Of a stretch of 64,000 bases of DNA, positions 1-20,513 are shown piece after piece; the stretch's first letter is position 1, and each line of letters starts with the position of its first letter. The notes below the pieces were generated by a model. The model saw only the letters and a program-made list of their open reading frames with translations, was not told the DNA's origin and made no database searches. A program made the translations under genes and the position numbers. The stretch is from Amphiscolops sp. MND2022 (taxonomy: Eukaryota), in contig OZ076409.1 of NCBI GenBank assembly GCA_964187785.1, positions 48,920,001 to 48,984,000 on the forward strand, read 5' to 3'.

Positions 1-1219
1 TGCGAGGTTCTCTGCCTGGTGACGGGGCGTGTGAAACAAGAGTACGAAGGCTCTATTCCCGCGCTAGACGAACCATTGTATGCTTGCAAAGGTAACGGGA
101 AGAACAAACCACCATTGTTGTAGGTTTTAGTTATTTGTCGGAACTGTGATGATAATTAGAAGGCACTGCAACTACTGAATATTGGATCCTTTTGTTCCTG
201 AATTTGTTTTCATCTTGGAAGAGGTATTTTCAGTTGAGATTTTCTTTTTACCTTATTTTTTTCCGAAGAATTGTAGTGTTCTTTTTCTGAAGGTGTTTTG
301 TAACAGTATACGAAAAATATCACAGTGCCACTGCGCCTCTTTTGTTAACGTTTCAGTTAAAAAGAAACGTTTTCCGAGTTATAAGGTCAACTTCGGAGAA
401 TTTTTAACACTGTGAGATCTATTATAATTTGACTAAAAACCACTCTGAGCATATTTTTTGACTTTGAAAATATGACAGCCGCAGTCTGGCAATTTATGTC
501 CTTAATGGATGCGTCGACTATTGCTTTTGAAATATCTTATTTCAATAAACAAGACGCCCTCTAAGCACCGGGATATTTTCCACCCTGTTCGCCTTCACCA
601 ACTGAGTCATAGCTATTTTGGGAGGGAATAGGATCTAAAGAATAAGATCTAAAATTTAGTGATTTTAGATCTTATTCCCGCCCTGAAATTTTAGATCTTA
701 TTCCCTTTTTTGACTTTAGATATTGTTCCCGCTGTATGCTATTTTAGTTACTTGACTATTTTAGTTACTAGTAGCTATATAAAATAGTCAAGTAATCAAA
801 AGGTGGAGAGTGTGGAGATTTGGCAAAATTTGGGAAAAAAACGCGTCACAGATCATGATTTTCCTCCCCCATTTATAAAATGTGGGGTCGGAAAATAATA
901 ATTACCATCTCTGACTGTATTAATGCCTTCGGGCAAGGCTTGCTGCGCACATGTGTCTCACAGTCTATATATGTGCTGACTATACTCACCCTTTAGTTTA
1001 ACTTTTAAAACATGGAACGACTTGAAATCTTCAATCAATTAAATCAGAATCGGATACATAATTTTGTTAAGTTCGATAGTCGCAATCCGCGATACATGGT
1101 AACTTTGTGTAGTCAGTAGTACTACTGTGATGATACCTCGACTGAGTTTAAAGCTTAAACTCAAAAGCGCTTCCTTAAATTATGATAATTAGTAAAGGAA
1201 CACTAGCATAAAAAAGTGT

Positions 1220-1953
1220 TGTAGCGATTACCTATCGAGTACACGATTTCGAAAATTTCGATGAAAATTTCGTTCAAAGGACTATATCCCCTCTACTGAA
1301 AAGTCATATTCCGCTGGACGGCAGCGTGTCTTTATTCAAGTACCTGCCCACAGAATTGAAGAGAATTTGAGCAAAAGACTCCGGGCAGACCCCAACCGAA
1401 CGAGAAGACTGCAGAAAAACACGGCCGCTGTCAGAAAAAGACTCAAATTTCTGTCAAAACGGACTGAACTTTGTTCTAGCCAGTGCTTTCTTCAGCGAAG
1501 CGTTACAAGACGCTGTGATTACCGAAAATGAGTCAATTGGCTTGACCAAGCATCCGTGCTTGTGTCCCCGGCTAATTGCTGCCTCAAAAGTGCTAATTAT
1601 GTAGTAATTTTCGTATTTTCTTGTTGTAACAGCTCGTGAGCTACTTATTTCGATTTCCTGTGTAACTTCGAAAAAACTTGATTTTTCCTTTCCACCACTT
1701 GCATTTTTTAAAGGCTATCTAAGCGTTGGTTCCGAAGAAAAAGCGTAATGCGCGCTACTGTTAGCAATTACAGACTGGATCAGGCCGGCGAGCACTTCTT
1801 AAGAAGCGGAATCCTCCTCTGACGGGACATTTCTTACCCGAAGGAGGCAAAATGGACTCATGGCCATGGGCGCCTGTCCCGGGCAAATACCCATGCCATG
1901 TGTTCCTCCTGCTCTTATGGTTACGGCGACAATGGTGAGAGCTTGTCGTTACA
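1220..1953 (+). repeat. 5' LTR (734 bp)
   Basis: TG...CA ends. Matches 19732-20465; the only difference seen is cgatttcGaaaa vs cgatttcAaaaa. Confidence 0.97.
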
Positions 1954-1969
1954 TGGAGAACACATTTTA

Positions 1970-1986
1970 TGGCGACCACAGAGGGA
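1970..1986 (+). promoter_or_regulatory. Putative primer-binding site, tRNA-Arg-like
   Basis: TGGCGACCACAGAGGGA resembles the complement of a tRNA-Arg 3' end (TGGCGACCACGAAGGGA, recalled from memory). It starts 16 nt after the LTR end. Confidence 0.6.
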
Positions 1987-4345
1987 TCGCTTCGAAGTGC
2001 TTCCCTTAATGGTTTTAAAATAGCCGACCCTCTGGTGATTGACGCCAAGTACGACCCGACTCTGATAAAAAGAAGAGAGAAGCAGAGTTTTTCCACGTTT
2101 TTACCCTGTGTGTGTTATTGAAGACTTCAAGCCCGGTGGATAAAGGTAAATCTTGTAAAAAAGCGCTGTATGTTGTGATTTTCATGCTTTTTCAGTAGTT
2201 GACAGGTAACGATCGAAATAGCCTACCCTCTTAACGGGTCACTCATAAAATTGGTCTAGCAAGCCGTTGGAAGGCTGCTAGAAGTGTTAGCAGGTGTTTT
2301 CTAGCCTTTTTCAGCTTTTTATGACCAATGAAGTGAGTGTTGAGAAGAGGACGATCCTTGCTCAGACGAATCTTACAATCTGCCGAAACGAGTTATACGA
2401 CTCACCGGTCCCATTTCTCGTACAGGCAACCTAGAGGAATGAAATTTGGTGGAGACGTACTACAAATGCTGACGTGTCTAATGGTGCAACTCGTTTGTCT
2501 CTAGCTGTTCTGGGTGATGAGCAAAAAGAACGAGAAGACACGACTCGTCAGTCCGGGTTGTATAATATTTTTGAGTCAGGTTGAAAAAATTTTTTGGGTT
2601 GCTCAAAATTTTGTGTACGACCACTTGCCAATGTTTTTACGAGCCTTCTGTAACTAGGTGTGTGCTTTTGCACCTGTTTTGTGCGAAAAAAGTGCGTTTT
2701 TTCATGTATTTTCGACGAAAAGTGCCAAATTTGGCCATTTTGAGGCGAAACACCTACATGAGCGCGAGCGCTCTTGGTGCTAGCCACACACCTGCAGAAA
2801 TTAAATAAAAGTAGCTCAGGACTCTAATGAGTTCGCAAAAAACGCGACGAACTGCTCAAAGTTGCCCGAAAAGGCACTTAGTATAAATTTTGTGAGGAAA
2901 AAACCCCGTTTTTGGAAGACTGAACATTTTTAGCACTTTGAATTTGTGGGGGAACTTGTATAGAAGCTTTTAAACACCCCCGTATGGTTGCAATTAGGTT
3001 GGGGTACACCTGCCGGTACCCAACAATACCCATTTTGGTAATTATAACCACTACTTCTTGAAAAAAGTTACGAGAACTGTGATTTTGAGGTTTTTCTATA
3101 GTACTCTTAGAAGAAACCCAATTTGACTATTGACGAACACTTTTACGCTTAGAATAGCCCCCGGGCTATTATTTTCAGTTTATTCAGTAAATTTAACGAT
3201 CTACAGTGAAGACCGCATCCCAAAATTCCTTTTCAGTGCTGAGAAAAGTAGAAAAATGCACTGAAAAACCTCCATTTTCCTAAAATCCGGACTGTCTCTG
3301 AGCTAAGGTCGGGTCATTGATTCTTGGACCTTAGCCAAAAGGTGGTTGCATTTTCATAACCACCACTAAAAAGAACGCTACTGCCGAAAATTTGGTGGAC
3401 GTAACTTTCACCAAAGTCGAAAAAAGTTCTCTAACGTTTCAACTTCAGGGGACTGTAAAACTGCCGAAATAATCCAAAACTGACGGACTGTCGGTGCCTC
3501 GTGTTTAACGGGCACACCTAATCGAGGGTTTATCCTAGTACTACGAGTAGTGGGGCAACACGTAGGTCCCATTTTTTTCAGCCCTACCACTTTTTGAGGT
3601 GACCCTCTTAGCCAATTTGTGAAAAAAGTAGTCCAAAGTTGTGTTTTTTTGAGTGTTGTCCAAGTAAGGTCGGAACCTCAAATAAGCGTCCGCGCTTTCA
3701 TTTGATGGTTTCACCGGCATTGTACACGCTCATCGACTGTAGCTACAAAGTTTCGTGTCAATCCAACCGGTACTTGGTGAGAAAATAGAAAAAACGTACC
3801 ACTCAAAAAGTTGGGCATAGAGGGTAATTTTTCAAATTTTTCCTGAGTGATCCGAGTACCTTAATTGAAAAACGAGGTTGAATTGCCGTTCATTTCTATC
3901 ATTTGTACCAGATACTACGTTGTTTTGCAAATTTTGAGCCCGCTAGCTTTTTTTCAGTAAAGCACAATCTTGAAATAAGCATGAAAATTGATGTATCTTG
4001 GTGACTAAGGGTACCGAACGTCCGAATCAGCCTGAATCTTGAAATAAGAACCTTAGCTTAGATTTGATTCTGCTATCGTGTAGTACACCTACCACAAGGT
4101 CAGGTGGCCAATTTTCAAGTGTCTCCGACGATTAGACGTTGCGCTCGAGGCATCTTAGTCATTTTTAAAGAAACCTGAAAAACTCAAAAATTGTCTGAAA
4201 ACTCGATTGTTTGCGAATTAGCTGTTCCGCAAGCCCCAAACGCACGGTTTCCGGCCCCACACCACGGTATCAACGCGCGCTGTGTAAGTTTCACGCCGGT
4301 ACGACCCCTAGATTGATTTTTGACTTTTTCGAGACGTGTGAAATC

Positions 4346-5294: not shown

Positions 5295-8200
5295 ATGGAT
5301 GCTATGGGCTATCGAATGGCCGAAATGAAAGACATGGTGGCCGAAAGAGAGGTGCGCATGGAAGCTCAAATGCAAGAGGTATGTTCACAGATACAAGCAA
5401 TGGGCACTATGTTGAAAAATATCCAACCTCGACCCGCACCAGCGAGCAACACTATCAAAGAGTTGCTGCAAGACACTGATGTATCACTGCCAAAACCCAT
5501 GAAAAGCGTCTCCCTCAAGCCAAAAGAGAGTTTGACGACTGCAACAAACCCATCTGGCTCTAAACAGCACTTGGCGAGGTACGCGCCTTTGCCACAACCT
5601 CTGGTCTCAAATGGAGAGGCCGCATCAACCTCGACGAAATTTATCCCGTCTGCGGTATCAACAAAATATATTCCACCCACGACCAAAGCTCACAAGAAAG
5701 AACCAACGTGCGAGGTGAGAACTATCGACACTTCAAGCATGGGTATCACCGGCCTGCGAGAGCCCACACGCACAAACGATCTAACTGAAGTCACCAGCAC
5801 CTTCCAAACAGCAAATGCAACTTTGGGAGAATCAGCTGCAGAATTCCAAACCGCGGACGATGGGTTGCCCCCGGGCAACCCATGCGCCAGCAGCACCCGA
5901 CGCCGAGAAGTGACTATCCCCGAGAACACCGATGACTCTGTCAACTCAACGCGAGGCAGCAGTATCCCGCCACCAGCTATCACTGAAGAAGCGCCTATAT
6001 CACCGGAGCAACTCAGGTTTACCGAGGCAATATCCAAGGCCATGTCCAAGGAACTGGCGCCGCTAATTGCTAATCGAGATCAAACTAGGGTCCGCCCTAC
6101 GGTGTACAAAGGCACTAATGATGGTACTGTCGATGGATGGCTTCCAGTGATGAAGCGATTTCTAGAAAGGGTGCATGCAAAATCACCAAAGATCGACAAA
6201 GCCTGGGCTATCATCGACCACCTGGAAGGGGAGGCGAGAAATTATATAATCAACAAATCTGAACCTGAACGAGACGAGCCCGACAAGGTATTCTCTCTCT
6301 TGGCCAGCAGGTTTGGAACCGGTGGAAACCGCATGCACGTCAGGCAAACCTTCATGTCTCGCGTCCAACAGGAAAAAGAGGATTGGATGCAATTCTTGGA
6401 CGCATTGGAAGGTCTGCGCACCCAAGGTTTCCCAGACGAGCCTATCACTACACGTCGTTATGAAATCCTGCAACGTTTTATAGATGGCGTCAATGACCCG
6501 ACGCTGCGACAAGAGTTGGCCGTGGTGTACGCTTCGGAGACATATTTGACTGAGCCACCAACTGTAGAATCCCTGAGATTCACCACGAGACAATTGCAAC
6601 GGCATCGCCCAAACACGTCAAAACCTTACGACCCAAGGTATGCAATGAGATCGAGGCCTAATCCTTTCGTGCCAGGGAAATTGGTTCACCCGGCACCAGG
6701 CCTACCACAAAATGTGCTGCCTCCAAACCAAGGACAGCGAGAGGCAAAGCCCCAGATGGCCCCACCAGGCCCTGCATCGGTAAAACAGGCTCCTGCACAG
6801 CAGCAACCAGCGAGAGTGATTCCCCAAGGAGCATGCTTCAACTGTGGACTACCGGGTCACTTTGCGAGGGAATGCCCACATCGAGACCTAGCAAGGAAAC
6901 CCGCGGCTCGCGCTGCACCCGAAGAGCGAGTGAACCTGTGTGAGAACAATGTGGCCTCTGCATGTTCTGGCCCCGTATTCTGTGTTAACTGTGGCATGAC
7001 CGAACACTCTGCATCACAATGCCAAAATGTTCCAGTACATGAGGATTTGGCCTACAGCCTCTGGGCTGAACAGCCATCTGCTTCTCAAACGATGAGTGAC
7101 AGTGAAATGGTACTCATGCTACGCCCTGCTGAAGCCGCTCACGTGGCGACGCCTCTTACCGTCACATGTGGCAAAATCCAAATCCAGACGAACCCAGAGC
7201 CAACTACTTTTGATCCCTCGGGACGCACTATCATGTCTGCCCGACTACTGTTGGCGGTCGAGAGAGAAACCCGCCCAGAACTCACCATAGACGCTTTGAT
7301 AGAAGAGATGACCGCAAACGAGAATTGCCGGCAACTGACTCTGCCCCAACGGGAAGAGTGGCAAGTGAAAGGTGTCACTTCGACGTATCATGCCTATTCT
7401 CCGATTCCAGTCAAAGTCTGCATAGATGGTGTTGACATGCGTTTTGGCGCCACTATTATTACTGATGCGTTTCCTCCTGGAAACTGCTTGGGACCGCAAG
7501 AGCTGCGCTGCTATAACATTGATGCTCAAGAACCAACTGGTGAAGCGAGAATCGATGAGCGTGCGTCGCTCGTGGTTTCATTCGTGGTTCCCGATGCTGC
7601 TCCCGTGCCATTACGTGGTCTAATAGACACTGGATCAGGAGTATCCATCCTCACCTTCTCAGCCTACAATCGAGTCGCCGTGCGCACTGGCACACTCTTA
7701 CGACCTTATGGTATTGACTTATATGCCGCGAATGGGAAGACGATCAAAACTTTTGGTCTAGCGGAGAAAGTCAAATTCCAATTGGGAGGCTATGAATTGG
7801 AAACTAACTTAGTGGTAGTTGATGACGCTATGGGAGTGGAAGACTTCCTCCTGGGCAGAAACTTCCTAAGAGCTTATCAGGTCTTGGTAGACCTAACCGC
7901 GATGAAGGTCATTGTCCGAGCTCCCTCTGAACCGGTGTGGTACCATGCCCACGCGCAAGAAAGTAACGAATCGCTCAATTCGTCGGTAGCGATTGCACAG
8001 GACGTAGTGTTGCAACCTTTTGAACGCGCGATACTACGCGCTAGATTGCTTGTAGACAACTTAGAACCTTTCATGTTTCGAACCGTGCTAATCAATTTTC
8101 AAACACCTAACCGAATGTTAAAAAACGCCATCTTTTTAGAGGACACCGTGGCGACCGTGGGGGAAACTGGTTTCCTTTACGTCAGTTTAGGAAATCTCAC

Positions 8201-11174
8201 CAGCAACGTACAGCGGATCAAAAAGGGCACCCTTTTGGGAACCGCGGTACCCGTGACGATGGTTCATAAAGCCATCCCCCAAATTGTCCCCGGACAATCA
8301 AATGAAACTCTGCAGTCAAATGCAAATTATGTTTGTAAAGTTTACGAACAGATGAACCTTGATTCTTCTTCTGAATATAGTTCTTCATCTGAATTTGAGT
8401 TTTTGTCCTCTACCGAACCGTCAGAACTAGGCTTGTCCGAGCGTGAAATAAAAAAACGAACCGATCCGGCGCTAATGGCTCCGATACCGGGCCCGGAAGC
8501 ACAACTCGACGAAGTGCGCGGTTTGTGGGGCTCGACCGCCAGCGACACGCTTAGTAAACTTTTGAACGAATTTGATGATTTGTTTATGAAATTCAAAGCC
8601 GACATTGGCAAATGTAAAATCGCTATGCACCCGGTGGAAGTAGAGCCAGGGGCTATACCTCACCGTGAAGGTGCAAGACGAATGTCGCCTGACAAGGCAG
8701 AACGTGCTAACCAAGAAGTCCGTGACTTGCTAGCTTTGGGAATGATACAACCTTCCCTATCCCCTTGTGCGAGTGGAATTGTTATGGTCAAAAAGAAGAG
8801 TGGTGAATTGCGATTCTGTTGTGACTTTCGACCACTTAATGAAGTGACCATCAAAGACGCTTATCCCTTGCCACGTATCGATGAGAGTCTATCCCGATTG
8901 GGCAAAGCCAAAATCTATACCAGTATTGACTTGGCATGGGCATTCTGGAAAATTCCTGTCCGAAAAGCCGATCGTCAAAAGACTGCCTTCGCTTGTGAAC
9001 TTGGGTTATTTGAGTGGCGGCGTATGCCTTTTGGTATGTGTAACGCATCAGCAACATTTCAACGGGCAATAGCGCGAGCGCTACAAAGAATAGTGAACCG
9101 CGAAGGAAGTATGGTTATGGCCTATATCGATGACATTGTGATTGCTACCAAGACCATCGAGGATCACATGGATAGACTATGCGAAGTATTCCAATGCCTG
9201 CGTGAGGCCGGCTTCAAAATGAGAGTCTCCAAGTGTGATTTTATGAAATCGGAGATCAAATATTTGGGCCGAGTTGTATCCGCAGATGGTATCAAGCCAG
9301 ATCCAAAAGCTGTCGCCAAGCTGAAAGATTGGGATATCCCGCGAACCAAAACTGAATTGCAAAGTTTCTTGGGTTTTGCCAACTACTATCGGGATTTTAT
9401 CCCATGGCATGCAAAGCTAGTTGCCCCTTTACATGCGATGACGGGCACAGGCTCTCCATTTTTATGGGGGGAGGAGCAGCAGCGAGCCTTTAACAGCATC
9501 AAAGTGGCACTAATGGAAGCCACTGCTCTGGCGCAACCCGACACTGAAGGCGAATTTGTTCTTGACACCGATGCTAGTGGTGTAGCTATATCAGGTATTC
9601 TTCACCAATGGCAAGGACCACCTGAGAGTCGCAAATTGCGACCGATTGTATTCGGAAGCAAAAAGTTAACCTCTACGCAAGCAAAGTATGGAGCCCCAAA
9701 ACTGGAAATGTACGCTGCATACTATTTCATCTTGAAAAACCACAGCTATCTCTGTCCACGGAAATTCACACTGAGGGTCGACAATCAGGCCCTATCCTGG
9801 CTAAAGACATATTCGATGGATCAGGCGATTATTGGTCGATGGATTATGGCTCTTGAAAAATATCACTTCGGTATTGAGCACCGACCCAGAACGCAACATC
9901 GAAATGCTGATGGTCTTAGCAAACGAACAAATGACTACAAAAAACACGAAAAGCAATTAAAGGGTTTTCCCGCAATTGCAGACAAATGGGATTTCCTATC
10001 ACAAGAGGAATACAACAAACTCCCGCTAGCCCCATGGTTTGATGTCCACGGACGTGTGATACCAAATCACCCAGAATTGCCTGCACACTTGCAGAGGTTG
10101 GCTAGCCAAAGTTCACCCGAAACCACAGTTGCCGCTCCCACGCGAAGGAGCGGACAAAGCAAACGAAGTGCGATCATGCGCGACGAAGCCATGAGAGCAC
10201 CCCTACCTACATTGCCAAAACCAGAATTGGCACTGCCTGCCGAACTTTATCCAGAGTATCCTGAGGATTGGTTGGAACTGACCGAGGAATATCAACGAGA
10301 CTATTTGCTCCCCACGCATGCTGCTAACGTACCATCAAGAACCACTTATCCACTGACGGAAAAGCAAGCAACTAGCACCGCACCAGAGCACGTAAAACAA
10401 GCCGCGTTTGTGGTAAACAGTATATCGATGGAATTGCATGAACATGCTAACACAGTCCATGGGTTGAAAGATCTACTACTGGCACAAAACCGTGACGTCC
10501 ACGTCTTGGCTATCAAGAAATTGGTAATGCAAGAGTCAATAGATCATGACATCTTTCCGGAAAATGTACGTGCCTTTGCCAAAAACTACCACAAACAGAA
10601 GAAGAACCTTCTGCTGGTAAACGCCAACGGGGTTTTGTGTGTAAAGTACTCCAAAAGTCAAAGAATTTTGCATGAACGCCCCTGCATGATAGTGATGCCC
10701 CAATTGTATCAGCATGAGATATTGTTCAAGGCCCACGACGCGATGGGACATCAGGGCATCGCGAAAGTCTTGGCCAGAATTCAAGAGCGCCACACTTGGC
10801 CAGGCATCCGCCGCACCATTGGACAATACGTCAGCCAATGTATCACTTGTCAACAAGTACGTGACAAGCCTGGTGATGTACGCTTTCACTTGAAAAATAT
10901 CCAAAGCGGCTATTTTAACGAGCTAGTCCAATATGACCACATGAAAATTTGTCCCTCTGACGATGGTAACACAGGGATCTTGGTTATTATTGATCATTTC
11001 TCTAAGCTCGCAGAAGCTGTGCCGTGCAACCACGATGAGTATGATGCAGCGACCACTTCAAAATTGTTGTTGCAGAAATGGTTTGCCCGCCATGGAACGC
11101 CGACGAGAATGCAGTCAGACAATGCTCAGCAGAGGCTCCCAACTTCACCGCGGCAGTATCTGCTGAGTTTATGA
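5295..11174 (+). CDS. gag-pol: Gag-Pol: capsid-like region, two CCHC knuckles, pseudo-protease, aspartic protease, dUTPase-like insert, RT, RNase H, integrase N-terminal half
   Basis: CFNCGLPGHFAREC (6834), CVNCGMTEHSASQC (6981), LIDTGS (7626), FLLGRNFL, LRFCCDFRPLN, YPLPRID, MPFG, YIDD (9123), VLDTDAS, NADGLS, HHCC zinc finger, IIDHFSK, SDN. Confidence 0.95.
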   Translation: MDAMGYRMAEMKDMVAEREVRMEAQMQEVCSQIQAMGTMLKNIQPRPAPASNTIKELLQDTDVSLPKPMKSVSLKPKESLTTATNPSGSKQHLARYAPLPQPLVSNGEAASTSTKFIPSAVSTKYIPPTTKAHKKEPTCEVRTIDTSSMGITGLREPTRTNDLTEVTSTFQTANATLGESAAEFQTADDGLPPGNPCASSTRRREVTIPENTDDSVNSTRGSSIPPPAITEEAPISPEQLRFTEAISKAMSKELAPLIANRDQTRVRPTVYKGTNDGTVDGWLPVMKRFLERVHAKSPKIDKAWAIIDHLEGEARNYIINKSEPERDEPDKVFSLLASRFGTGGNRMHVRQTFMSRVQQEKEDWMQFLDALEGLRTQGFPDEPITTRRYEILQRFIDGVNDPTLRQELAVVYASETYLTEPPTVESLRFTTRQLQRHRPNTSKPYDPRYAMRSRPNPFVPGKLVHPAPGLPQNVLPPNQGQREAKPQMAPPGPASVKQAPAQQQPARVIPQGACFNCGLPGHFARECPHRDLARKPAARAAPEERVNLCENNVASACSGPVFCVNCGMTEHSASQCQNVPVHEDLAYSLWAEQPSASQTMSDSEMVLMLRPAEAAHVATPLTVTCGKIQIQTNPEPTTFDPSGRTIMSARLLLAVERETRPELTIDALIEEMTANENCRQLTLPQREEWQVKGVTSTYHAYSPIPVKVCIDGVDMRFGATIITDAFPPGNCLGPQELRCYNIDAQEPTGEARIDERASLVVSFVVPDAAPVPLRGLIDTGSGVSILTFSAYNRVAVRTGTLLRPYGIDLYAANGKTIKTFGLAEKVKFQLGGYELETNLVVVDDAMGVEDFLLGRNFLRAYQVLVDLTAMKVIVRAPSEPVWYHAHAQESNESLNSSVAIAQDVVLQPFERAILRARLLVDNLEPFMFRTVLINFQTPNRMLKNAIFLEDTVATVGETGFLYVSLGNLTSNVQRIKKGTLLGTAVPVTMVHKAIPQIVPGQSNETLQSNANYVCKVYEQMNLDSSSEYSSSSEFEFLSSTEPSELGLSEREIKKRTDPALMAPIPGPEAQLDEVRGLWGSTASDTLSKLLNEFDDLFMKFKADIGKCKIAMHPVEVEPGAIPHREGARRMSPDKAERANQEVRDLLALGMIQPSLSPCASGIVMVKKKSGELRFCCDFRPLNEVTIKDAYPLPRIDESLSRLGKAKIYTSIDLAWAFWKIPVRKADRQKTAFACELGLFEWRRMPFGMCNASATFQRAIARALQRIVNREGSMVMAYIDDIVIATKTIEDHMDRLCEVFQCLREAGFKMRVSKCDFMKSEIKYLGRVVSADGIKPDPKAVAKLKDWDIPRTKTELQSFLGFANYYRDFIPWHAKLVAPLHAMTGTGSPFLWGEEQQRAFNSIKVALMEATALAQPDTEGEFVLDTDASGVAISGILHQWQGPPESRKLRPIVFGSKKLTSTQAKYGAPKLEMYAAYYFILKNHSYLCPRKFTLRVDNQALSWLKTYSMDQAIIGRWIMALEKYHFGIEHRPRTQHRNADGLSKRTNDYKKHEKQLKGFPAIADKWDFLSQEEYNKLPLAPWFDVHGRVIPNHPELPAHLQRLASQSSPETTVAAPTRRSGQSKRSAIMRDEAMRAPLPTLPKPELALPAELYPEYPEDWLELTEEYQRDYLLPTHAANVPSRTTYPLTEKQATSTAPEHVKQAAFVVNSISMELHEHANTVHGLKDLLLAQNRDVHVLAIKKLVMQESIDHDIFPENVRAFAKNYHKQKKNLLLVNANGVLCVKYSKSQRILHERPCMIVMPQLYQHEILFKAHDAMGHQGIAKVLARIQERHTWPGIRRTIGQYVSQCITCQQVRDKPGDVRFHLKNIQSGYFNELVQYDHMKICPSDDGNTGILVIIDHFSKLAEAVPCNHDEYDAATTSKLLLQKWFARHGTPTRMQSDNAQQRLPTSPRQYLLSL

Positions 11175-14122
11175 AAGCCGCCCAAGTGACCAAAGTAACC
11201 TCAACTGCTGGCCACCCCAAGACTCAAGGGTTGGTAGAGCGACAAAACCGAACGTTACTCACCCTACTGCGTGTATTCTGCTCTAGACGAATGCGTGATT
11301 GGGACCAGTATTTAGATGAAGTCATGGGTGCATACAACTCCACACGTCATGCCACTACTGGGTTCTCCCCGTATATGCTGACCAGAGGCATGGAAAAAGC
11401 TATACCCCTGACTTTCTTGTATCCCGAATTTGCAACTCAGTCATTCGAATCACACGAAGCCTATGTGGAACATGTGCTGGCTCGACAGCAAGAGATTCAT
11501 GACTTAGTCCGTCGTAACACGCATCAAGCCCAGCAGCGACAAAAGTTGAAATACGACCGAGCAATTCGTGCTAAAGCCTTTGAAGTGGGCGAACCTGTTT
11601 GGGTATTCTGCCGATACATTCCTCAAAAAGGATCTCCTAAATTGATGAGAGCATGGCGTGGTCCTCACAAAGTAGCACGAGTGCTACAAGAGGGACGCGT
11701 CTACATACTTGACACTGGTCAGAAAGTACATTTCGAACGATTGAAACCGCACCATGGTGGTCCAACAGAATGGGCAGCTGTTCCTGCGCATAACGGCGAG
11801 GTTGCTATCATCATGGACCCTGACCCAGAACAATCCCACGAGGAAGTGAGAGACGATGCCTCGCAACCTTCTTATCGTGCGGAGGAACCAATTTCAGAAG
11901 CCAGTAATGCCTCTTTGCCTTCTCGACAAAGACATTGGATGGACACACGGTTGCGCACACGCATGCGCGCTGGTGGCAGCCGCCTACATTATCAACAATT
12001 TGACTATTCTTCGACTGAGTCTGACGACGAACGTTCTGATGTACTCCTGTCGAGTGTTCAGGCTAATCCCGATGAGAGTGCTATCTTGTCATCACATGTG
12101 GATGAACCTGCGCCTATTCCCGAAATACCAATATCACCACTGCCTGCTATGGAGGCTCTATTCTCAGAGAATGAAGCAGTGCCCGACGTCTTGGATATCG
12201 CCCCAAATCCTACTATCCACGCACCCACCAAAAGTGCCGGCACCTCTCTGACCGGTACATCCGCCCCATTATTGACAAATCCATCTCTTACGGATATGTT
12301 GAGTAACTTTCCCATTTGGCCCCTAATCGATGACAATGTTCTCAACCCCACCTTAGACGACAACGGTGCTGAAGCACCAATGACCAATGACGAAAAGGGA
12401 TTTATTCCCCCTACGACAGTTCCCACCAACAACAACGCAGCTACTACCACGAAACTCTCCAATGCTCCTAGAGGGCATAGACCGCGGGGACGTCCGCCAG
12501 GCAGAGCGAGGCCGCGAGCCTCGCTGCCACGTGGCCACCAACAGAGAGGTGCTATTAGAGGCGCTCGCAAAAGAGGCCGTCCCAGAGGAAGACCTCCTCG
12601 TACAACACACGCCAGACCTAACACCTCTACCCGTGTTCGTCGCACTCCATCTGTGGACACTGACTCTTCTGCCCCTAGCGCGGCGGTTACCTCAGATCAA
12701 GCAGCACCGCCAGAATCAACCAACGCTCGCTATGGCCTGCGACGCTATCGTATTCCCAGATATCGTTGCGGAACCTGTGGCCTACGAGACTGCGAATGTA
12801 ACTACATGGTCCACGCGGGCTTCCCAATTAAACCCCAGGGAGTCCTGCTAGCACGTGAACAGGAGAAATCGCTTCCAAGCGGCACGGTTGACCGTTTGGT
12901 TATTCGAGCCGAGAAGACTTATACTGGGCTACAACGCAGCGACACTCCATATCCTGTGGACTATATCCTATCCAAAATGAAAGATTCTACGATAGCAAAG
13001 GCCCCGTGCCCAAGGTTCAAGGAGTGGACCTATGATCTTATTGGTTTGGAATTCACATTACCTATCACTGTTCCCCCCTTGCCTACAAATATTGCTTTTG
13101 GTCCTTTCAACTATGAACGAGAGCCTATCCAAATGGTACGCTGTATTCCTGCTGACCTTTTGTATGACAAGTACAATATCACCGCAAAACCAGGAGACGT
13201 TTATCAGCCTGCAACCAACTGGTGGCTACTACTTACGGCCAAACAAGTGTCCGACCTGGTTCATCCCAATAACTTGAACACCTGTCTGGAGAGTTTGCGG
13301 ACAATGGCCTCTCCTGATAGAATCACTTGTTTCCACACCATAGACCTGTATCGTGGTAAAATTAAGTTTGAATGGTGGCTGGAACTTATCATAGCAGTCT
13401 TATCGAACTTTTCACGAATCCGATTCCTGGACGAATGGACACACTCATTTCCTAGTCCTGTATCACTCCAATCAGCCCTACACGCACTGGATACATGGTC
13501 CAGGGCTAACATTGATAATCAATCGTTGCCGCGATCTGTGTGGCAAGACTTGGGCGCCATTAAAGGCCTCCTTCCGAACACATGTGACGATGCTCTCTCC
13601 AATGACCCCGGACGAGAGTTAGTATACCATGGAGCCGTGAGACCTCAATTGGTTGACTATGTGCAGTATGCCAATACGGACTTCCTGCAAACTCCCCATC
13701 ATATTGTTTTATGTTGTCCCGCAAACCTTGAGACTAATTCTGCCGCTCTTCGTTACGTCATTCGTGAGCATGGTGCAGATGCAATCTTTCAACTTCGACC
13801 AGAGGTTGGCAATATTGTGACGCTACCCACATCTTTGATAGACGGCCATCCTCAGACTATCAACCTTTTAATCACACGAGCTACACCTCGCTGCCCTATG
13901 CTCGCTGATATTCTCTTTGGATGTCTTGATCATTTGAAAACGTTACTCGAGCGCTTAGAGGCGATAGAAATACACTTTGCCATCATTGATCCTGAGCGCC
14001 CAATACGTAATCTTTTCGACTTTTATACCTGTTTGATGGACGTATTCGCTGACACGCCCCTGACCGTCGTTCTTCACGATCGCGTTTACGTATCTATTGC
14101 AAGCGTCGCTAGCTTTCCGTAG
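11138..14122 (+). CDS. pol: Continuation of pol after an 11-bp insertion: integrase C-terminal half, disordered linker, AT-hooks, Cys cluster, two macrodomain-like repeats
   Basis: Removing 11127-11137 restores SDNAPNFT. Then HPKTQGLVER (catalytic E), AYNST.H.TTGFSPY, WRGPH (GPY/F) and VHFERLK. GRPRGRP motifs at 12480-12600. Confidence 0.9.
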   Translation, partial: PNFTAAVSAEFMKAAQVTKVTSTAGHPKTQGLVERQNRTLLTLLRVFCSRRMRDWDQYLDEVMGAYNSTRHATTGFSPYMLTRGMEKAIPLTFLYPEFATQSFESHEAYVEHVLARQQEIHDLVRRNTHQAQQRQKLKYDRAIRAKAFEVGEPVWVFCRYIPQKGSPKLMRAWRGPHKVARVLQEGRVYILDTGQKVHFERLKPHHGGPTEWAAVPAHNGEVAIIMDPDPEQSHEEVRDDASQPSYRAEEPISEASNASLPSRQRHWMDTRLRTRMRAGGSRLHYQQFDYSSTESDDERSDVLLSSVQANPDESAILSSHVDEPAPIPEIPISPLPAMEALFSENEAVPDVLDIAPNPTIHAPTKSAGTSLTGTSAPLLTNPSLTDMLSNFPIWPLIDDNVLNPTLDDNGAEAPMTNDEKGFIPPTTVPTNNNAATTTKLSNAPRGHRPRGRPPGRARPRASLPRGHQQRGAIRGARKRGRPRGRPPRTTHARPNTSTRVRRTPSVDTDSSAPSAAVTSDQAAPPESTNARYGLRRYRIPRYRCGTCGLRDCECNYMVHAGFPIKPQGVLLAREQEKSLPSGTVDRLVIRAEKTYTGLQRSDTPYPVDYILSKMKDSTIAKAPCPRFKEWTYDLIGLEFTLPITVPPLPTNIAFGPFNYEREPIQMVRCIPADLLYDKYNITAKPGDVYQPATNWWLLLTAKQVSDLVHPNNLNTCLESLRTMASPDRITCFHTIDLYRGKIKFEWWLELIIAVLSNFSRIRFLDEWTHSFPSPVSLQSALHALDTWSRANIDNQSLPRSVWQDLGAIKGLLPNTCDDALSNDPGRELVYHGAVRPQLVDYVQYANTDFLQTPHHIVLCCPANLETNSAALRYVIREHGADAIFQLRPEVGNIVTLPTSLIDGHPQTINLLITRATPRCPMLADILFGCLDHLKTLLERLEAIEIHFAIIDPERPIRNLFDFYTCLMDVFADTPLTVVLHDRVYVSIASVASFP

Positions 14123-14344
14123 AACTTTTTTTTTCCTTTCGCTCTTTTTTTGTTTTTTTTGTCCGCTCGATTAAGTTTAGTGAATCGACACGGAGTTTAC
14201 TTGAAACAAATACGTTACCTTTTCTTTTAATGTTAATTTGTGATATCCTATTACTTCCCCTGGTATTACCCTTAAAATGACCTATGGTGTTACCCTACTA
14301 TCAAGTGTGCTACAATCGACCTGCAGTCTTTCAGAGTTTCCGTC

Positions 14345-17300
14345 ATGAACCAAGGTGACGATGAAAGCAACTACGTCCCTCCAAGGTCTTCAGATGACTC
14401 TCCTGCCTTGGGGCAACGCGTTTACGACACTGCGCGTGTCCAGCGTACCCCACAAATTGCTTTCATTCGAGACAGACTCGACCAAGGTCTGTCGCCAGCT
14501 ACAGTAGCCGGGGTGGCGGCGATCATAGCCCAGATGGAGTCACAAGTGCAAGCCCCTATGCTGACGATATCTATCACTTCAGGCTTTCCTGGGTTCCAGC
14601 GATCTATGACGTTCCAAGATGGAGTGTGGTACGGCCATGATCTCACACATCACTTTACGGATGATCGTGCAGCGATCTCATACAGTCCTGCGAATGGCGG
14701 AGTCCATCAGACCAGATCTCTACAGATCCCCTCTTGCCCGCCTCCACCTCCACCGCCACCTCCTGTATCGATGCCACAAACAGTAGTGCGTGCAAGCACT
14801 TCTGCTCCTGCAGTACCTAACTTGTCCAATCAACCAATGGCAGAACAAGCAGTTATCTCAGCACTGCAAGCAGTAGCTATCAACCCTAATTACGCTGATT
14901 TCATGCGATCCATGGAGCAGTGTTGGCCTGAACTACGCCAAATTGCTCTGCCCACTGTCACTATTCGCAACGAAAACGCCACTTTGAACCAAACAAGTCA
15001 AGATGCTATCACTATTCCTCACGTCAATCCTCAGTCTGAACAGCCAGGGCACTCCCGCACCGTGACTGTAGAGCGCAGTCGTTCGCCTTCCCGCTCTTCT
15101 CAAAAGGGGGGAGGAGAGAGCCGCCCTGCCTCCAGAAAACGCAATGACCGTTCTCCAACAAGAATGAGTGCTCAACAACCACTAACTGCTCGTGACAGCC
15201 CCTCGAGCAAGCCACCACCCGACAAAAGGATCTCCAACGAGAAGGCCACAACCTCCAAGACGCCAAACCAAACAAAATCAAAAGTGTCGGAAGCATCCGT
15301 GCTTCCCTCACCCCAGCCACAACCAAACGCAACAGGCGAACAACAAGGACTGCCGCAGCCACCATCCACGCAGTCTACAACACGCGAGTCGCTGGCTCAA
15401 CGAGCGATTCCTAAGCCTTCTACATCAAGACAGCCACAAACGGAGCAAACTGTGGGTTATCAAGGCACCCCTGAACCGCAGCGAACTGTCAAGGACATAA
15501 TGGGTGATTACCCAGGATTGAAGGTAACCAACAGTGGTCCAACTGGAACCCCACTCCGCAAACAGGCAATTCAACACCCAACTAAGAGGACCTTTACAAA
15601 GCAACCGACGTACCTGAGTCCAATGCAAAACACGAAGGGCACGCTGATCACCAAGGACTCCCGACGTATCTGGGAATCGGCAGTTATTGTATCACCCGAA
15701 TGGCTGTTTGAAAAGAACATGTGTCCTCCGAATGACGAAGAGCATGCGAAATTGAAGAAGGCGAATGTACCTGTATTCATGAATCGTCCAATTCGCCCCG
15801 ACCACACCCCTACTAATGAGCCGCCATGGCTAGGGAAGGCAATGAATATTCTGCCAAACGTAGAAGACAACTACTTGGACGCCCTCAACATTGACCTTCG
15901 TGGGCAATTCGCTGACCGATACTTCCTCAACGCTGGAGAGACCTTCGAGATCAACCCGCGGTACGCCCGTGACCTCGAAGCCCAGCTACCAATGCCAAAA
16001 GAAAGGTTGCAGCGTGCGCGCTTCGCCTTACTTGTAGACTCGACCTTCCTCAAAAATATCCCTATTGACAATGTGCTGTCAGACGTGATGGTTTTCACTC
16101 TACCGCTGTCACGTATCCCCGAGATGGCTGAAGTGTTGGTCACCATGTTTGACCCCGAGATGACGGGGACCTTCAAAGAGCCACCCCCACGCAGAGTGAT
16201 CATCAGTAACGTTTTCGATCACATGGCCTGTGAAGGACTAATGGCCCAGATCGCGAACGTTGAAATCATAAATCCAACTCCAGCACAGCAAGCAACAGTA
16301 CGCAACGCAGCACTGAATGTGGCCCGAGCCATGGAAAAAGCCCAAAATATCCTAAAGAATAAACTCAACGTGCCAGTCTTGTTTGTAACACCCCCAGGTT
16401 TCTGCCAGTGGCATCCCGCCTTGCAGAGATTTATCTATATGGTAACAGAAATTTGCAAATGTAGAGAAATAGACTTTGCGATCTGCGCGCCCAATATGCG
16501 GATCAGCTCCGACGACTTGCGTCCCTCCTGGCTTTCCTACATGGGGTACGTTGCCTCAGTGTCTAAAGTGCTACAGTCAGTGGAAAAGACAGGGAACGCG
16601 CAGCTGACAATCGATGATGCCATCTATTTTGATCACGGCACTCGTATGGGCTTGTTAGTATTCAACAACAACGGAGAAAGGCGAGTCCCAGAACCTAGCA
16701 CGGCTGAATGTGAGGCAATCCGCCTGAATAACTGGATGGAGCGCGCGCGCTCCTCCGGTGGAAAGACTTGCATTAAAACTGATCTTGCGGAAGTCACCGC
16801 CATAATGAGCAAAATCCCCAGCGACCGAGAAGTGGAACGAGCCATCCCGCGAGTTCAATTTGCCCAGGACCTCACTATTGACCAACTATCAGTGGGAATG
16901 AGGTATATCGCTGCAAAATTGACGAGCGAGACTCAGGCTGAAATCCAAGCCTTCAGCAGCACCTACGACGCTTGGTACCAGCGGCTGCAAACTACCACCG
17001 TAGCAGACATTGCAAAAGAACTTGGGATGTCAACCGACCAATTTGCCATCTGTTTGGGATTGGGTTGGAGTCCCGATGTTATTCGAGTTGAGTTCGGCTT
17101 GGACGAACACTGGTTGATCGAAATCAGCAAGATTATCGGCACCATGCAAGTAAACGAACTCTTTGCACTGATAATCACCTTCGGGCAGAAACGCTTCGTA
17201 GCTGGCCCAATTATGATATTGACCGACCTGGTTACTGAGTGTAATCTGGAATGGCTATTTTCGTGTTTAGTGATTGCGCGAGGCAATATCTCAGGCCTCA

Positions 17301-18715
17301 CCGCCTTAGCCAAGCTGCTACAACGAAAAGACGCTCAGGATTATCCCGCTCACCTGGAGCGCATGACAACTTCGTTATATCACTGGATATACTGCAGTCT
17401 GGTCTTTGCCTCGGGACTTTTCGTGGGCGTAGATAAGCACCAACCATTATATGACGGACGTCAGCTGGTGACCGAGGTAGCTGGATTTCTGACACCTAAC
17501 CAGCTGGCAGATTTCACTTTGGCTGAAGTCGAAGACCTTGTACCGGTGTTAGCACCCGTGCTAACTCCGATATTTGGCCCAACCGGGATACTTCGCTATC
17601 CCACCAAGCCTCTGCGACTCGCCTGGGAGACACCAACAGTATCCATTCTGACTTTTCTGAAGAATGTAAAACCGTACAACTATCAGCAGATGCTTGAACG
17701 CGGGCTGTTCCTGCTAATACCCCGCATGTCTACCACCATAAAGAACGAAACGCAGCAGGACGAAAACCTGGCCGGCATTCTCAAAGCCCGGACAAAGAAG
17801 GCGTGCCCTTTACCTCGCGAATACGGCCCGGTGAATTGGTACAATTCGCCCCTAGATCACCATGGAATCCCACAGCGATTCAATTGGAGTTTCGCACACC
17901 TCAGGAAGTACGTGACCGAATGCGTACAAGCCATGGGCGGTCACACAAACCAGGGGTATAATTTTCAGAAGATCAAGCTTCCAGCCAGGTACTGGCGAGG
18001 ACCCATCGGCTATGCGCGGGCTAAGCCAATCAGCATGGTTGAGAAAGGCTTTCATGAGCAGTACGCCTATCGCGATCACTACAAACTAGGCGTGTGGATG
18101 TGAAGGACCCTGGAGGAACGCCAAGGGCGCCTAAAAGTCTTGATCATCCCTCCACAGACAATGCCAGTTTGGAATCCAGAGGCGAGGGTCACTATGGGAA
18201 GCGACATGCCAGCGGAGACCTGCTACCATGTCATGGAACTGCTGAGTGATCCCCTCGGACCAGAATGGGAAGCCTCCAGGCAAATTATAGAACATGAAAA
18301 CAGGGACAACTGGTCCAGAGCCTGCGGGCTCTGGGGCCGACCTGATCTACGCCCGAAACTCAGTGCCAAGCAGAAACGACCCATTGCCACCCGCAATAGA
18401 CCGCTAGATCTACCACACCTGTTTAATGCCAGTAGATTGGATGTGCAGATCCCAACCTCCACGTCGACCACAAGTTCTGCCAATGTTAGCGGCTCAGCCA
18501 ATGCAGCGCAAGAACATTCGCCAGAAGTCTCAACTCCCGTAGCTGCAGAAAATGGCCCTAGTGGCTCAAACACGACTCCCAGGACCCATGAAACTGCCAG
18601 CGCCGAACCAAGGCCAGTCCTGCGAGAAGGAAATGTGCGAAGAGGATCCCTGTCCGAATCACAACCGAAAGCCGACGTCTCCCCCAGAGCGCGTCACTTA
18701 TCCGCCACCCAGTAA
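14345..18715 (+). CDS. Extra ORF3 in env position (about 1,456 codons, one internal TGA at 18101): Pro/Ser/Gln-rich N-terminus, SGNH-hydrolase-like domain, helical C-terminal region
   Basis: The 1252-aa ORF and the 18140-18715 ORF share a frame and are separated only by a single TGA. Both lie inside the LTR pair. No signal peptide is visible. Confidence 0.8.
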
Positions 18716-19721
18716 AACAAACCTAACATTATTGCCATTCTGTTTTAAACTTCAATAGTCCTGTGGTAAATGAACCTTTGCGAAACCTCATGGTTTCAAC
18801 CACTGTTGTTGCTAAACTTTGATTTTGGAAGTGCCAATTGGTCATGGGTAAAAACCTCCAAGTGGAGATGAAGCCCCCGGGCTTCATCCTCCTCATTATT
18901 CCGTTTTGGGACCGGCAACCCAACCATAAAACTACGCCTTTGCCTTGCCTTAGTTAAATGCAATATTCAATTTGCAATTTGTGTTTGCAGTTAGTGCTTT
19001 TTCAAGCTACCTTATGCTACCTTATGGATGCGCTGTGCGCACTCCGTGCTCTGAATTTTCGGTGCTATTACACCCTTTTAGTTACTAGTTATTGTTTACA
19101 CTGTTGCTATTGTCGAAAAAGACAAAAGGAAAAAAATGAAGGAAAAGGAAACAAAAGGAGAGAGATTAGAAATGGATAGAATAAAAAGATTGATGGACCT
19201 CGACCATTGTTTTTTCTTTGAGTTACCTGATAGGATTGAGAGTAAGTCTCGCAAAAGAAATTTTAAATTGACTGTACTTATTGGTTGATTTTATGGCAAC
19301 TGCTTATCAAAAGAACTTTTATCAAACGCCAAGCAGTGCGAAGCTCCCGAGCTTCGGAAAATAAATTTTGAACTGTCATGTGATGGTCGTTGACCTTAAA
19401 ACAAGTTTTAACACTAACGGCAATAAAAATTTTTTTGTATGAAAGGCCGAAAAGAAATTTTAACGCCTGAATTGCTCACGACAGGCTACAAAATGTAATA
19501 ACCTTGCCGTATAAGATTTGTATACGAAGTTGTATTGATTTGATCAAAATGCAGCAACGCTGGGTCAAAAACACTTCCACGAGGCCAACTTTACGACGTC
19601 CCAATGAACTGCCCAGCGCTACTTGATGTGCACTCTACCTCCTCAGTGGGACATAGATGACCCTGGGTAAAGACTCGATGATGCCAACCCACACTTGACG
19701 GGGACGTCAAGACTAGACCCC

Positions 19722-19731
19722 GGGGAGTGTA
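19722..19731 (+). promoter_or_regulatory. Short polypurine tract (GGGGAG + TGTA) before the 3' LTR
   Basis: Purine run immediately upstream of the 3' LTR, preceded by the hairpin CTTGACG-GGGA-CGTCAAG (19694-19711). Confidence 0.6.
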
Positions 19732-20465
19732 TGTAGCGATTACCTATCGAGTACACGATTTCAAAAATTTCGATGAAAATTTCGTTCAAAGGACTATATC
19801 CCCTCTACTGAAAAGTCATATTCCGCTGGACGGCAGCGTGTCTTTATTCAAGTACCTGCCCACAGAATTGAAGAGAATTTGAGCAAAAGACTCCGGGCAG
19901 ACCCCAACCGAACGAGAAGACTGCAGAAAAACACGGCCGCTGTCAGAAAAAGACTCAAATTTCTGTCAAAACGGACTGAACTTTGTTCTAGCCAGTGCTT
20001 TCTTCAGCGAAGCGTTACAAGACGCTGTGATTACCGAAAATGAGTCAATTGGCTTGACCAAGCATCCGTGCTTGTGTCCCCGGCTAATTGCTGCCTCAAA
20101 AGTGCTAATTATGTAGTAATTTTCGTATTTTCTTGTTGTAACAGCTCGTGAGCTACTTATTTCGATTTCCTGTGTAACTTCGAAAAAACTTGATTTTTCC
20201 TTTCCACCACTTGCATTTTTTAAAGGCTATCTAAGCGTTGGTTCCGAAGAAAAAGCGTAATGCGCGCTACTGTTAGCAATTACAGACTGGATCAGGCCGG
20301 CGAGCACTTCTTAAGAAGCGGAATCCTCCTCTGACGGGACATTTCTTACCCGAAGGAGGCAAAATGGACTCATGGCCATGGGCGCCTGTCCCGGGCAAAT
20401 ACCCATGCCATGTGTTCCTCCTGCTCTTATGGTTACGGCGACAATGGTGAGAGCTTGTCGTTACA
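19732..20465 (+). repeat. 3' LTR (734 bp)
   Basis: Direct repeat of 1220-1953. Confidence 0.97.
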
Positions 20466-20513
20466 TGTAGTTTGATGAAAAACGTCCGGAAGCTGTTCAG
20501 TCATCTCCAATGA

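What the first reader, a model, noticed from the sequence alone, without database searches (positions are those of the whole stretch)
16010..16590. SGNH/GDSL-hydrolase-like domain in a non-env third ORF of an LTR retrotransposon
Seen, in SGNH block order: RFALLVDS (GDS-like, Ser at 16040), VMVFTLPLSRIPEM (block II, normally PGA.I), VIISNVFDH (block III, normally VGTND), VLFVTPP, and SSDDLRPSWLSYMGYVASV (block V, normally DGLHP). The His position is CGT, one base from CAT. Known: SGNH domains occur in ORF1p of L2/CR1-group LINEs (lipid binding) and, in inactive RNA-binding form, in Oskar. Inference: a membrane-, lipid- or RNA-binding accessory protein in place of env. The long disordered N-terminus would suit condensates.
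Basis: partly seen in the sequence, partly recalled or inferred. Interest (0 to 1): 0.82.

Follow-up and report, generated by a model that had tools for sequence, protein, structure and literature searches.

The report
Dead esterase kept by gypsy retrotransposon
A very abundant jumping gene carries, where retroviruses keep their envelope gene, a large extra gene under strong selection with a predicted esterase-shaped domain that lacks the usual catalytic residues, so it likely works as a binding module rather than an enzyme.

Summary
16010-16590 lies in ORF3 of a complete 19.2-kb Ty3/gypsy element. Pfam and profile searches miss the domain, but it folds confidently (pLDDT 86) and its structural matches are SGNH hydrolases (Z up to 12). 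ORF3 follows pol in 6 of 6 full elements from three lineages 35-50% identical in this domain and is under purifying selection (dN/dS 0.06-0.16), so it is no nested LINE or one-off capture. Corrections: Arg at the His position is family-wide (59 of 59 loci), not a recent slip; the triad Asp and, by inferred register, both oxyanion residues are lost too. SGNH ORF3s in LTR elements are published (bdelloid Vesta, active sites intact, PMC5408684), and this scan noted an SGNH cargo in a copia element elsewhere. New here: a selected pseudo-esterase inside a 1,450-residue non-env protein of otherwise unmatched fold. The ligand is untested; binding of RNA or anionic membrane for particle assembly is my best guess. 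An invariant Ser/His/Arg set leaves a rewired active site open. Side results: a degenerate macrodomain ends Pol, and target-site duplications are 3 bp in 14 of 17 copies examined. New variant of a known kind.

The parts
1220..1953 (+). 5' LTR (TG...CA)
   Evidence: 99.7% identical to the 3' LTR over 742 nt; ends
1217..1219 (+). 3-bp target-site duplication, left copy (right copy 20466-20468)
   Evidence: 3-bp match, no 4-bp match
1970..1987 (+). primer-binding site complementary to tRNA-Arg(TCG), 16 nt inside the 5' LTR end
   Evidence: matches the 3' end of the host tRNA-Arg gene L088
4349..14122 (+). gag-pol, broken in this copy into three frames (4199-5194, 5280-11174, 11045-14122)
   Evidence: ORFs; zf-CCHC, aspartyl protease, RVT_1, RT_RNaseH, integrase H2C2 and rve
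13601..14119 (+). degenerate macrodomain-like module at the C-terminus of Pol
   Evidence: hhalign 92%, E 7e-7 to a Pfam Macro-positive domain of another gypsy family; Atlas lead PF01661 on 14% of a cluster, score 0.89; dN/dS 0.05-0.09
14327..14334 (+). candidate splice acceptor (pyrimidine run plus AG) 11 nt before the ORF3 ATG; inferred
   Evidence: similar pyrimidine-AG signals upstream of ORF3 in lineages A, B, B2, C, C2, read by eye
14345..18103 (+). ORF3, 1252 codons to a premature stop in this copy; the frame runs on to 18715 and is open for about 1,430-1,490 codons in many other copies
14430..14700 (+). conserved N-terminal segment of ORF3
   Evidence: 35-42% identity between lineages; present in P0271
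14750..15650 (+). Pro/Ser/Thr/Gln-rich, poorly alignable linker with two conserved basic patches (RKR, PPPDKR)
   Evidence: 86% disorder-promoting residues in aa 201-400; alignment
16010..16590 (+). SGNH-fold domain (ORF3 aa about 556-749): Ser566 kept; Leu588, Phe624, Asp723 (variable) and Arg726 at the inferred oxyanion Gly, oxyanion Asn, triad Asp and triad His positions; invariant Asn622, Asp625, His626
16865..17413 (+). confidently predicted all-helical domain with no structural match found
   Evidence: pLDDT mostly above 90 for model residues 50-220 (folded from natural copy L050); no Foldseek hit with E<=0.001, no Z>=5, searched only as part of a 581-residue model
18104..18715 (+). C-terminal remainder of ORF3 behind the premature stop
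   Evidence: aligns in frame with P0001 and P0008
19722..19729 (+). short polypurine tract
   Evidence: GGGGAG shortly before the 3' LTR in 6 of 6 full elements and the window
19732..20465 (+). 3' LTR

Best explanation
The stretch encodes a predicted SGNH-fold domain in the third gene of a Ty3/gypsy retrotransposon clade, kept under purifying selection with Arg in place of the catalytic His, so it is likely a dead esterase that would bind RNA or negatively charged membrane to gather and place the element's particles inside the cell. Shown: element anatomy, linkage of ORF3 to pol, selection, the family-wide residue changes. Predicted: the fold. Inferred: residue register, loss of catalysis (about 0.8 on its own), a separate spliced message, the ligand, the role in particle assembly, and descent from a transposon-borne esterase.
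For: Fold. Register: end points of the structural alignments put model residue 39 on TesA Ser10 and residue 199 on TesA His157 and PAF-AH His195 if the terminal segments are ungapped (ranges 30..221 to 1..179 and 14..220 to 20..216; those catalytic numbers are recalled). The Ser-to-block-II spacing of 22 equals S143-G165 of the ZfL2-1 esterase (PMC3905857). That position is Leu in 51 of 57 homologs and never Gly; the inferred oxyanion Asn position is Leu/Phe/Ile/Met in 52 of 58; the triad Asp position is Asp in 9 of 56; the His position is Arg in 47 of 57. Selection: domain dN/dS 0.16 (22/187 synonymous vs 12/608 non-synonymous, P 2e-7), 0.06 and 0.07 in three within-lineage pairs; RT 0.02-0.05. 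Linkage: LTR-gag-pol-ORF3-LTR in 6 of 6 fetched elements. Homologs at 25-38% identity; two of them (P0096, P0181) have no near-identical match in this genome. Known behaviour of the fold: Oskar OSK lacks the catalytic residues and binds RNA (PMC5785220); ZfL2-1 esterase binds anionic liposomes even with active-site mutations (PMC3905857). Intact transposon esterases occur in the same genome, in a LINE ORF1 and behind the integrase of another gypsy family.
Against: No binding, localisation or expression data. The domain is not strongly basic (net charge -2 to +3, pI 5.7-8.8 in five lineages, against +6 for the intact gypsy esterase), which weakens simple electrostatic binding of RNA or membrane. 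ZfL2-1 esterase did not bind oligo-A RNA (PMC3905857). Ser, His626, Asp625 and Arg are nearly invariant, which an enzyme would also show. No sequence or profile link to any transposon esterase was found, so the donor is unknown. Most of ORF3 has no assigned fold. dS is near saturation in two of the three pairs.
Confidence: 0.5

Rival explanations
1. The domain is a dead enzyme used as a structural core or protein-binding surface of a large nuclear or counter-silencing protein that helps the element evade host control; it binds neither RNA nor lipid.
For: Near-neutral domain charge and bulky residues at the inferred oxyanion positions. Conserved basic patches in the linker read like nuclear localisation signals (by eye). 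The 460 residues behind the domain are under equally strong selection (dN/dS 0.05-0.15). The family is very successful: about 3,300 candidate places in the first look, 131 scored. The Pol macrodomain is also degenerate.
Against: No known silencing-suppressor or DNA-binding fold was matched. Invariant polar residues cluster at the old active site, which suggests a ligand there.
Confidence: 0.22
2. The site is rewired and still catalytic: Ser566 is the nucleophile, the invariant block III His626 acts as base, and Arg726 replaces the oxyanion hole.
For: Asp565-Ser566-Thr567, Asn622, Asp625, His626, Arg726, Pro727 are kept in 57-59 of 59 loci and in most remote homologs. His626 lies one or two residues from the usual oxyanion Asn, which lines the active site in the ZfL2-1 esterase (PMC3905857).
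Against: One remote homolog has Thr for the Ser (P0271) and one has Tyr for the His (P0159). The Asp-Ser-Thr motif can be kept for structure. Leu and Phe at the inferred oxyanion positions would crowd the site. PAF-acetylhydrolase also has a non-catalytic His after block III (recalled).
Confidence: 0.13
3. ORF3 stands in for env and carries particles across membranes between cells.
For: Env position and a likely spliced message. The idea was raised for GDSL ORF3s in PMC5408684 and PMC6431247.
Against: No signal peptide; no furin site in lineages A, C, C2 and only a terminal one in B, B2; a single Pro-rich hydrophobic stretch (hydropathy 1.7-2.3). No fusion-protein fold. PMC5408684 itself judged an env-like role unlikely for GDSL ORFs without TM or coiled-coil parts.
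Confidence: 0.1
4. ORF3 is a nested LINE ORF1 or a captured host gene that drifts neutrally.
For: LINEs with esterase ORF1 exist in this genome (L081, L082, L085). This copy has a premature stop.
Against: Same place in 6 of 6 full elements of three deep lineages; no endonuclease or second RT behind it; dN/dS 0.08-0.20 over the whole ORF.
Confidence: 0.01

Closest known systems
Vesta LTR retrotransposons of bdelloid rotifers with a GDSL esterase/lipase ORF3 (PMC5408684; main text read, parts 1-3 of 5)
   Same: LTR element with gag, PR-RT-RH-IN pol and a non-env ORF3 holding an SGNH domain; no TM anchor.
   Different: Vesta ORF3 is about 1.3 kb with intact S, G, N, H residues, low copy number and no selection seen among the copies tested. 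Here ORF3 is 4.4 kb, multi-domain, G/N/D/H are replaced, selection is strong between lineages, copy number is high. No sequence comparison with Vesta was possible.
ORF1p esterase of non-LTR elements, ZfL2-1 (L2/CR1/RTEX/Penelope) (PMC3905857; passages and part 3 of 6 read)
   Same: Transposon-borne SGNH fold; Ser-to-block-II spacing 22; membrane binding there does not need the active site.
   Different: Active enzyme with a full triad, oxyanion hole and the transposon-specific His191; gag-like position; basic surface; coiled-coil dimer. The His191 position is Phe/Ile here in the favoured register.
Oskar OSK domain (PMC5785220, one passage; structure 5a4a)
   Same: SGNH fold without catalytic residues; structural match Z 8.7.
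   Different: Host germ-plasm protein; no Pfam OSK hit here; it scores below the active hydrolases, so no special kinship is shown; RNA binding untested here.
Catalytically dead GDSL derivatives of Athena-L Penelope-like elements (PMC5408684, one sentence)
   Same: Retroelement-borne SGNH that lacks catalytic residues.
   Different: Not an LTR element; no function shown; not compared by sequence.
Second gypsy family in this genome with an intact-motif SGNH domain behind integrase (L073, P0312)
   Same: Ty3/gypsy element with an SGNH domain 3' of integrase.
   Different: RT-RNase H only 38% identical; domain fused to Pol; GDS, G, GxND and DxxH motifs intact, Pfam E 7e-15; no detectable sequence link.

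Membership tests
SGNH/GDSL hydrolase fold | five-stranded parallel alpha/beta/alpha fold matching solved SGNH structures | tested here: met
   pLDDT 85.8; Z 11.9, rmsd 4.1, 177 aligned to 1bwp; Z 11.3, rmsd 3.1, 156 aligned to 3hp4
SGNH/GDSL hydrolase fold | sequence match to Pfam Lipase_GDSL, Lipase_GDSL_2 or OSK | tested here: not met
   0 of 78 homologs match at E<=0.5
active SGNH esterase | block I nucleophile Ser | tested here: met
   Ser in 57 of 59 loci and 38 of 46 homologs
active SGNH esterase | block II oxyanion Gly | tested here: not met
   Leu 51, Cys 2, His 2, Ala 1, Phe 1 of 57; register by spacing and secondary structure, not by coordinates
active SGNH esterase | block III oxyanion Asn (GxND) | tested here: not met
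   hydrophobic in the favoured register, Asp in the alternative one; an invariant Asn lies two residues earlier; register inferred
active SGNH esterase | block V Asp-x-x-His | tested here: not met
   Arg in 59 of 59 loci; His 1 of 57, Asp 9 of 56 homologs
active SGNH esterase | hydrolytic activity | not testable with these tools
   needs an assay
Oskar OSK-type RNA-binding pseudo-hydrolase | RNA binding by a basic surface | not testable with these tools
   only net charge computed: near neutral
LINE ORF1p esterase (ZfL2-1 type) | position upstream of an endonuclease-RT ORF2 | tested here: not met
   downstream of gypsy pol, inside LTRs
LINE ORF1p esterase (ZfL2-1 type) | structural closeness to the ZfL2-1 esterase | tested here: inconclusive
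   no row with that title among those listed; the crystal form is domain-swapped
Ty3/gypsy LTR retrotransposon | TG...CA LTRs, PBS, PPT, order PR-RT-RH-IN | tested here: met
Ty3/gypsy LTR retrotransposon | 4-6 bp target-site duplication (range recalled) | tested here: not met
   3 bp in 14 of 17 elements examined, none longer; 2 lacked the 5' end in the fetched stretch, 1 is rearranged
retroviral or errantiviral env | signal peptide, furin site, C-terminal TM anchor | tested here: not met
   hydropathy and motif scan of six copies; simple scan, no dedicated predictor
Vesta clade (bdelloid) | RT phylogeny and dUTPase between PR and RT | not tested
   no reference sequences at hand; no dUTPase Pfam hit

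The most novel reading that the evidence does not exclude
An undescribed gypsy lineage, marked by 3-bp target duplications, has rebuilt a captured esterase into a new kind of site (Ser with a block III His and a block V Arg) or into an Oskar-like RNA-granule organiser, inside a 1,450-residue accessory protein with a new helical fold, and this protein underlies its spread to thousands of copies.
Probability: 0.2. Interest if true: 0.8.

Novelty: new variant of a known kind. Interest (0 to 1): 0.52.

Why it matters
What non-env third ORFs of LTR retrotransposons do is an open question (PMC5408684, PMC5718144), and the rotifer study saw no selection among the copies it tested. Here the ORF is plainly selected while the canonical catalytic residues are gone, which would mean that what retroelements gain from SGNH domains can be binding, not hydrolysis, as the ZfL2-1 liposome data hinted. 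It would also be an independent case of the Oskar-type turn from esterase to non-enzyme. One genome holds intact LINE esterases, an intact gypsy Pol-esterase fusion and this dead form, a ready comparison set. The 3-bp target duplication, if not already described, points to an unusual integrase geometry and means that LTR finders set to 4-6 bp would miss these elements.

Tried and rejected
Sequence searches for the fold: Pfam, PDB sequences, ESM Atlas (10, no usable hit), hhalign against four intact transposon esterases (57, 58; diluted alignments, thin template): all blank. Profile search of the large protein set returned 117 family members, none with a Pfam domain, so no bridge to active esterases. 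Expression: no RNA holder was listed; no evidence either way. Dimer of the domain: no answer, score 0.00, alignment not used, fold uncertain; no evidence either way. Context of remote homologs: two metagenome scans found no relative; two earlier requests were not run because the alignment was too diverse; so linkage to pol outside this genome is not shown. C-terminal region of ORF3: model pLDDT 60.7, no match; searched only whole at 581 residues, so a weak match may be missed. A second macrodomain repeat at about 13100-13450, seen by eye, was not confirmed (hhalign 0.7%). Rejected: recent single-base loss of His; nested LINE or neutral cargo; canonical env. One remote homolog labelled as a bacterial metagenome protein (P0140, 816-bp contig) I take as likely host contamination, untested. 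Literature: ten full-text searches found only PMC5408684 and two reviews citing it for SGNH in LTR elements, and 0 papers for pseudoenzyme+SGNH+transposon; one search was a guess at the host group and was not followed. The library lacks most subscription journals and Repbase Reports. No supplements were read.

Full report
1. Context. The finding lies in a complete LTR retrotransposon at 1220-20465. The LTRs are 99.7% identical, so the insertion is young. The primer-binding site at 1970-1987 matches a host tRNA-Arg gene. [quoted passage not shown] This copy is broken: gag-pol falls into three frames and ORF3 has a stop at 18101-18103. ORF3 starts at 14345, 222 nt behind the pol stop. The genome (1.07 Gb) gave 3,283 candidate places for the domain, of which 131 were scored, all 95-100% identical; many lie in open frames of about 1,479 codons. 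These are not copy numbers.

2. The observation. All quoted motifs are present in frame and in order. Sequence methods do not recognise the domain. I collected homologs (31; 414 at E<=0.001, best 150 listed), aligned the window domain with 77 of the 181 proteins then held, chosen for covering it, and folded it: mean pLDDT 85.8, pTM 0.81. Three libraries agree on SGNH: Foldseek PDB best E 1.6e-4, viral models best E 5.8e-5, and the wide structural search with Z 11.9 for PAF-acetylhydrolase, 11.5 for a GDSL lipase, 8.7 for Oskar OSK; TesA scores 11.0-11.5 at rmsd 3.0. The tool warns that a best Z of 7-8 is common by chance; 12, with SGNH proteins filling the list, is above that. The matched span equals 16010-16591.

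3. The active site. The end points of the alignments place Ser566 on the nucleophile and Arg726 on the catalytic His of both TesA and PAF-acetylhydrolase if the terminal segments are ungapped (catalytic numbers recalled). Ser+22 is the oxyanion Gly in the ZfL2-1 esterase (PMC3905857) and is Leu588 here. In block III the strand ends at Ser621 and a helix starts at Val623, which favours Asn622 = Gly, Phe624 = oxyanion Asn, Asp625 = Asp; a shift by one would put Asp625 at the Asn. Counts among homologs that cover each column: Ser 38 of 46; Leu 51 of 57, no Gly; Leu/Phe/Ile/Met 52 of 58 at position 624; Asp 9 of 56 at the triad Asp; Arg 47, Cys 5, Gln 2, His 1 of 57 at the triad His. In 59 fetched loci (57 distinct places, the best hits of five searches plus five full elements, not a random sample) Arg is in all 59, as CGT 51 times and CGC 8 times. 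So the canonical triad and oxyanion hole are gone in the whole family, and the Arg is old and kept. Against a simple dead-enzyme reading: His626, Asp625, Asn622 and the Asp-Ser-Thr motif are almost invariant; exceptions are one Thr for Ser and one Tyr for His in remote homologs.

4. ORF3 belongs to the element and is selected. Six full elements from three lineages (domain identity to the window 95-100%, 47-49% and 36-37%) all show LTR, gag-pol, an open ORF3 of 1,430-1,491 codons, LTR; one of them has a rearranged 5' end. Pairwise dN/dS for the domain is 0.16, 0.06 and 0.07 within lineages; for all of ORF3 0.20, 0.08, 0.09; for RT 0.02-0.05. The first pair is unsaturated (P 2e-7); the other two have 62-70% of synonymous sites different, so their values are rough. 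Two remote homologs (P0096, P0181) have only 32-37% matches in this genome, whereas P0046 and P0067 have 99-100% matches, so the family likely occurs in other genomes; their linkage to pol there could not be checked.

5. The rest of ORF3. About 100 conserved N-terminal residues; a Pro/Ser/Thr/Gln-rich linker with conserved basic patches; the SGNH domain; a confidently predicted helical domain of about 180 residues and a poorly modelled tail, neither matched. No signal peptide, internal furin site or clear anchor. Pyrimidine-AG signals before the ATG suggest a spliced message (by eye).

6. How it most likely works. Shown: a selected accessory gene whose SGNH-like domain lacks the canonical catalytic set. 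Inferred: the domain is a non-catalytic binding module (about 0.8 that it is dead). Both studied non-catalytic uses of this fold involve polyanions: RNA for Oskar (PMC5785220, one passage) and anionic membranes, independent of the active site, for ZfL2-1 (PMC3905857). I therefore favour binding of RNA or membrane to assemble or place the element's particles (0.5). The near-neutral charge of the domain counts against this and keeps a protein-scaffold or counter-silencing role in play (0.22). A rewired Ser-His-Arg enzyme (0.13) and an env substitute (0.1) are less likely.

7. What is known. PMC5408684 (main text read) describes GDSL ORF3s in bdelloid Vesta LTR elements with intact catalytic residues, and mentions dead GDSL derivatives in Penelope-like Athena-L. 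PMC5718144 and PMC6431247 (passages) repeat this. PMC6338049 and PMC9025612 held nothing relevant in term look-ups. Ten searches found no paper on a selected dead SGNH domain in an LTR element; the library is incomplete. In this genome a distant gypsy family has an intact-motif SGNH domain fused behind integrase, and LINEs have esterase ORF1s. SGNH capture by retroelements is thus recurrent. It works like a transposon-borne SGNH module; it is not a member of the active SGNH esterases, the LINE ORF1p esterases or env.

8. Side results. Pol ends in a degenerate macrodomain, a second enzyme fold that seems to have lost its canonical motifs in the same element. Target-site duplications are 3 bp in 14 of 17 elements examined, outside the 4-6 bp I recall for LTR elements; this was not checked in the literature.

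9. Verdict. Real, well supported as a predicted fold, with a published precedent for the arrangement. New variant of a known kind; interest 0.52.

Noticed in passing
window 1217-1219 and 20466-20468; loci L049-L066, L097-L116: Target-site duplications are 3 bp, never 4 or more, in 14 of 17 elements examined across lineages A, B2, C, C2; 2 had no 5' end in the fetched stretch, 1 is rearranged. The usual range for LTR elements is 4-6 bp (recalled); not searched in the literature.
   Followed up: partly
window 13601-14119: Pol ends in a degenerate TARG1-type macrodomain (hhalign 92%), under purifying selection. A possible second repeat at about 13100-13450 was not confirmed.
   Followed up: partly
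window 12480-12620: Several Arg-Gly-Arg-Pro motifs, AT-hook-like by recall, in the long Pol extension behind integrase.
   Followed up: no
L073:1438-2409, L075, L078, L084; P0312: A second, distant gypsy family in this genome carries an SGNH esterase with intact motifs fused behind integrase.
   Followed up: partly
L094-L096: A third gypsy family carries a canonical TARG1-like macrodomain at the end of Pol.
   Followed up: partly
L081, L082, L085-L087: LINE elements with an esterase ORF1 upstream of an endonuclease ORF.
   Followed up: no
L061-L066: Lineages C and C2 differ little in RT (dS 0.15) but much in ORF3 and the Pol tail (dS 0.9-2.1): likely recombination between the RT region and the 3' module.
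   Followed up: no
window 1954-1987: The primer-binding site starts 16 nt behind the LTR end, with a variable spacer, in lineages A, B2, C; the 5' leader to the first ORF is about 2.4 kb.
   Followed up: partly
L089, L090 (G000:C9 from about 57.54 Mb): A tandem array of tRNA-Arg genes, unit about 174 bp; the search pattern has 255 matches in the genome, nearly all of the 100 listed in this array; this is the element's primer tRNA.
   Followed up: no
window 26443-28848: Long terminal inverted repeats (about 355 nt, 98% complementary) around 1.7 kb without a long ORF: probably a non-autonomous DNA transposon.
   Followed up: no
window 44356-45406; 33650-33800; 24239-60963: 351-bp tandem repeat, a 27-bp tandem repeat, and a dispersed family of short repeats with G-runs.
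   Followed up: no
window 36811-37010: Run of 200 N.
   Followed up: no
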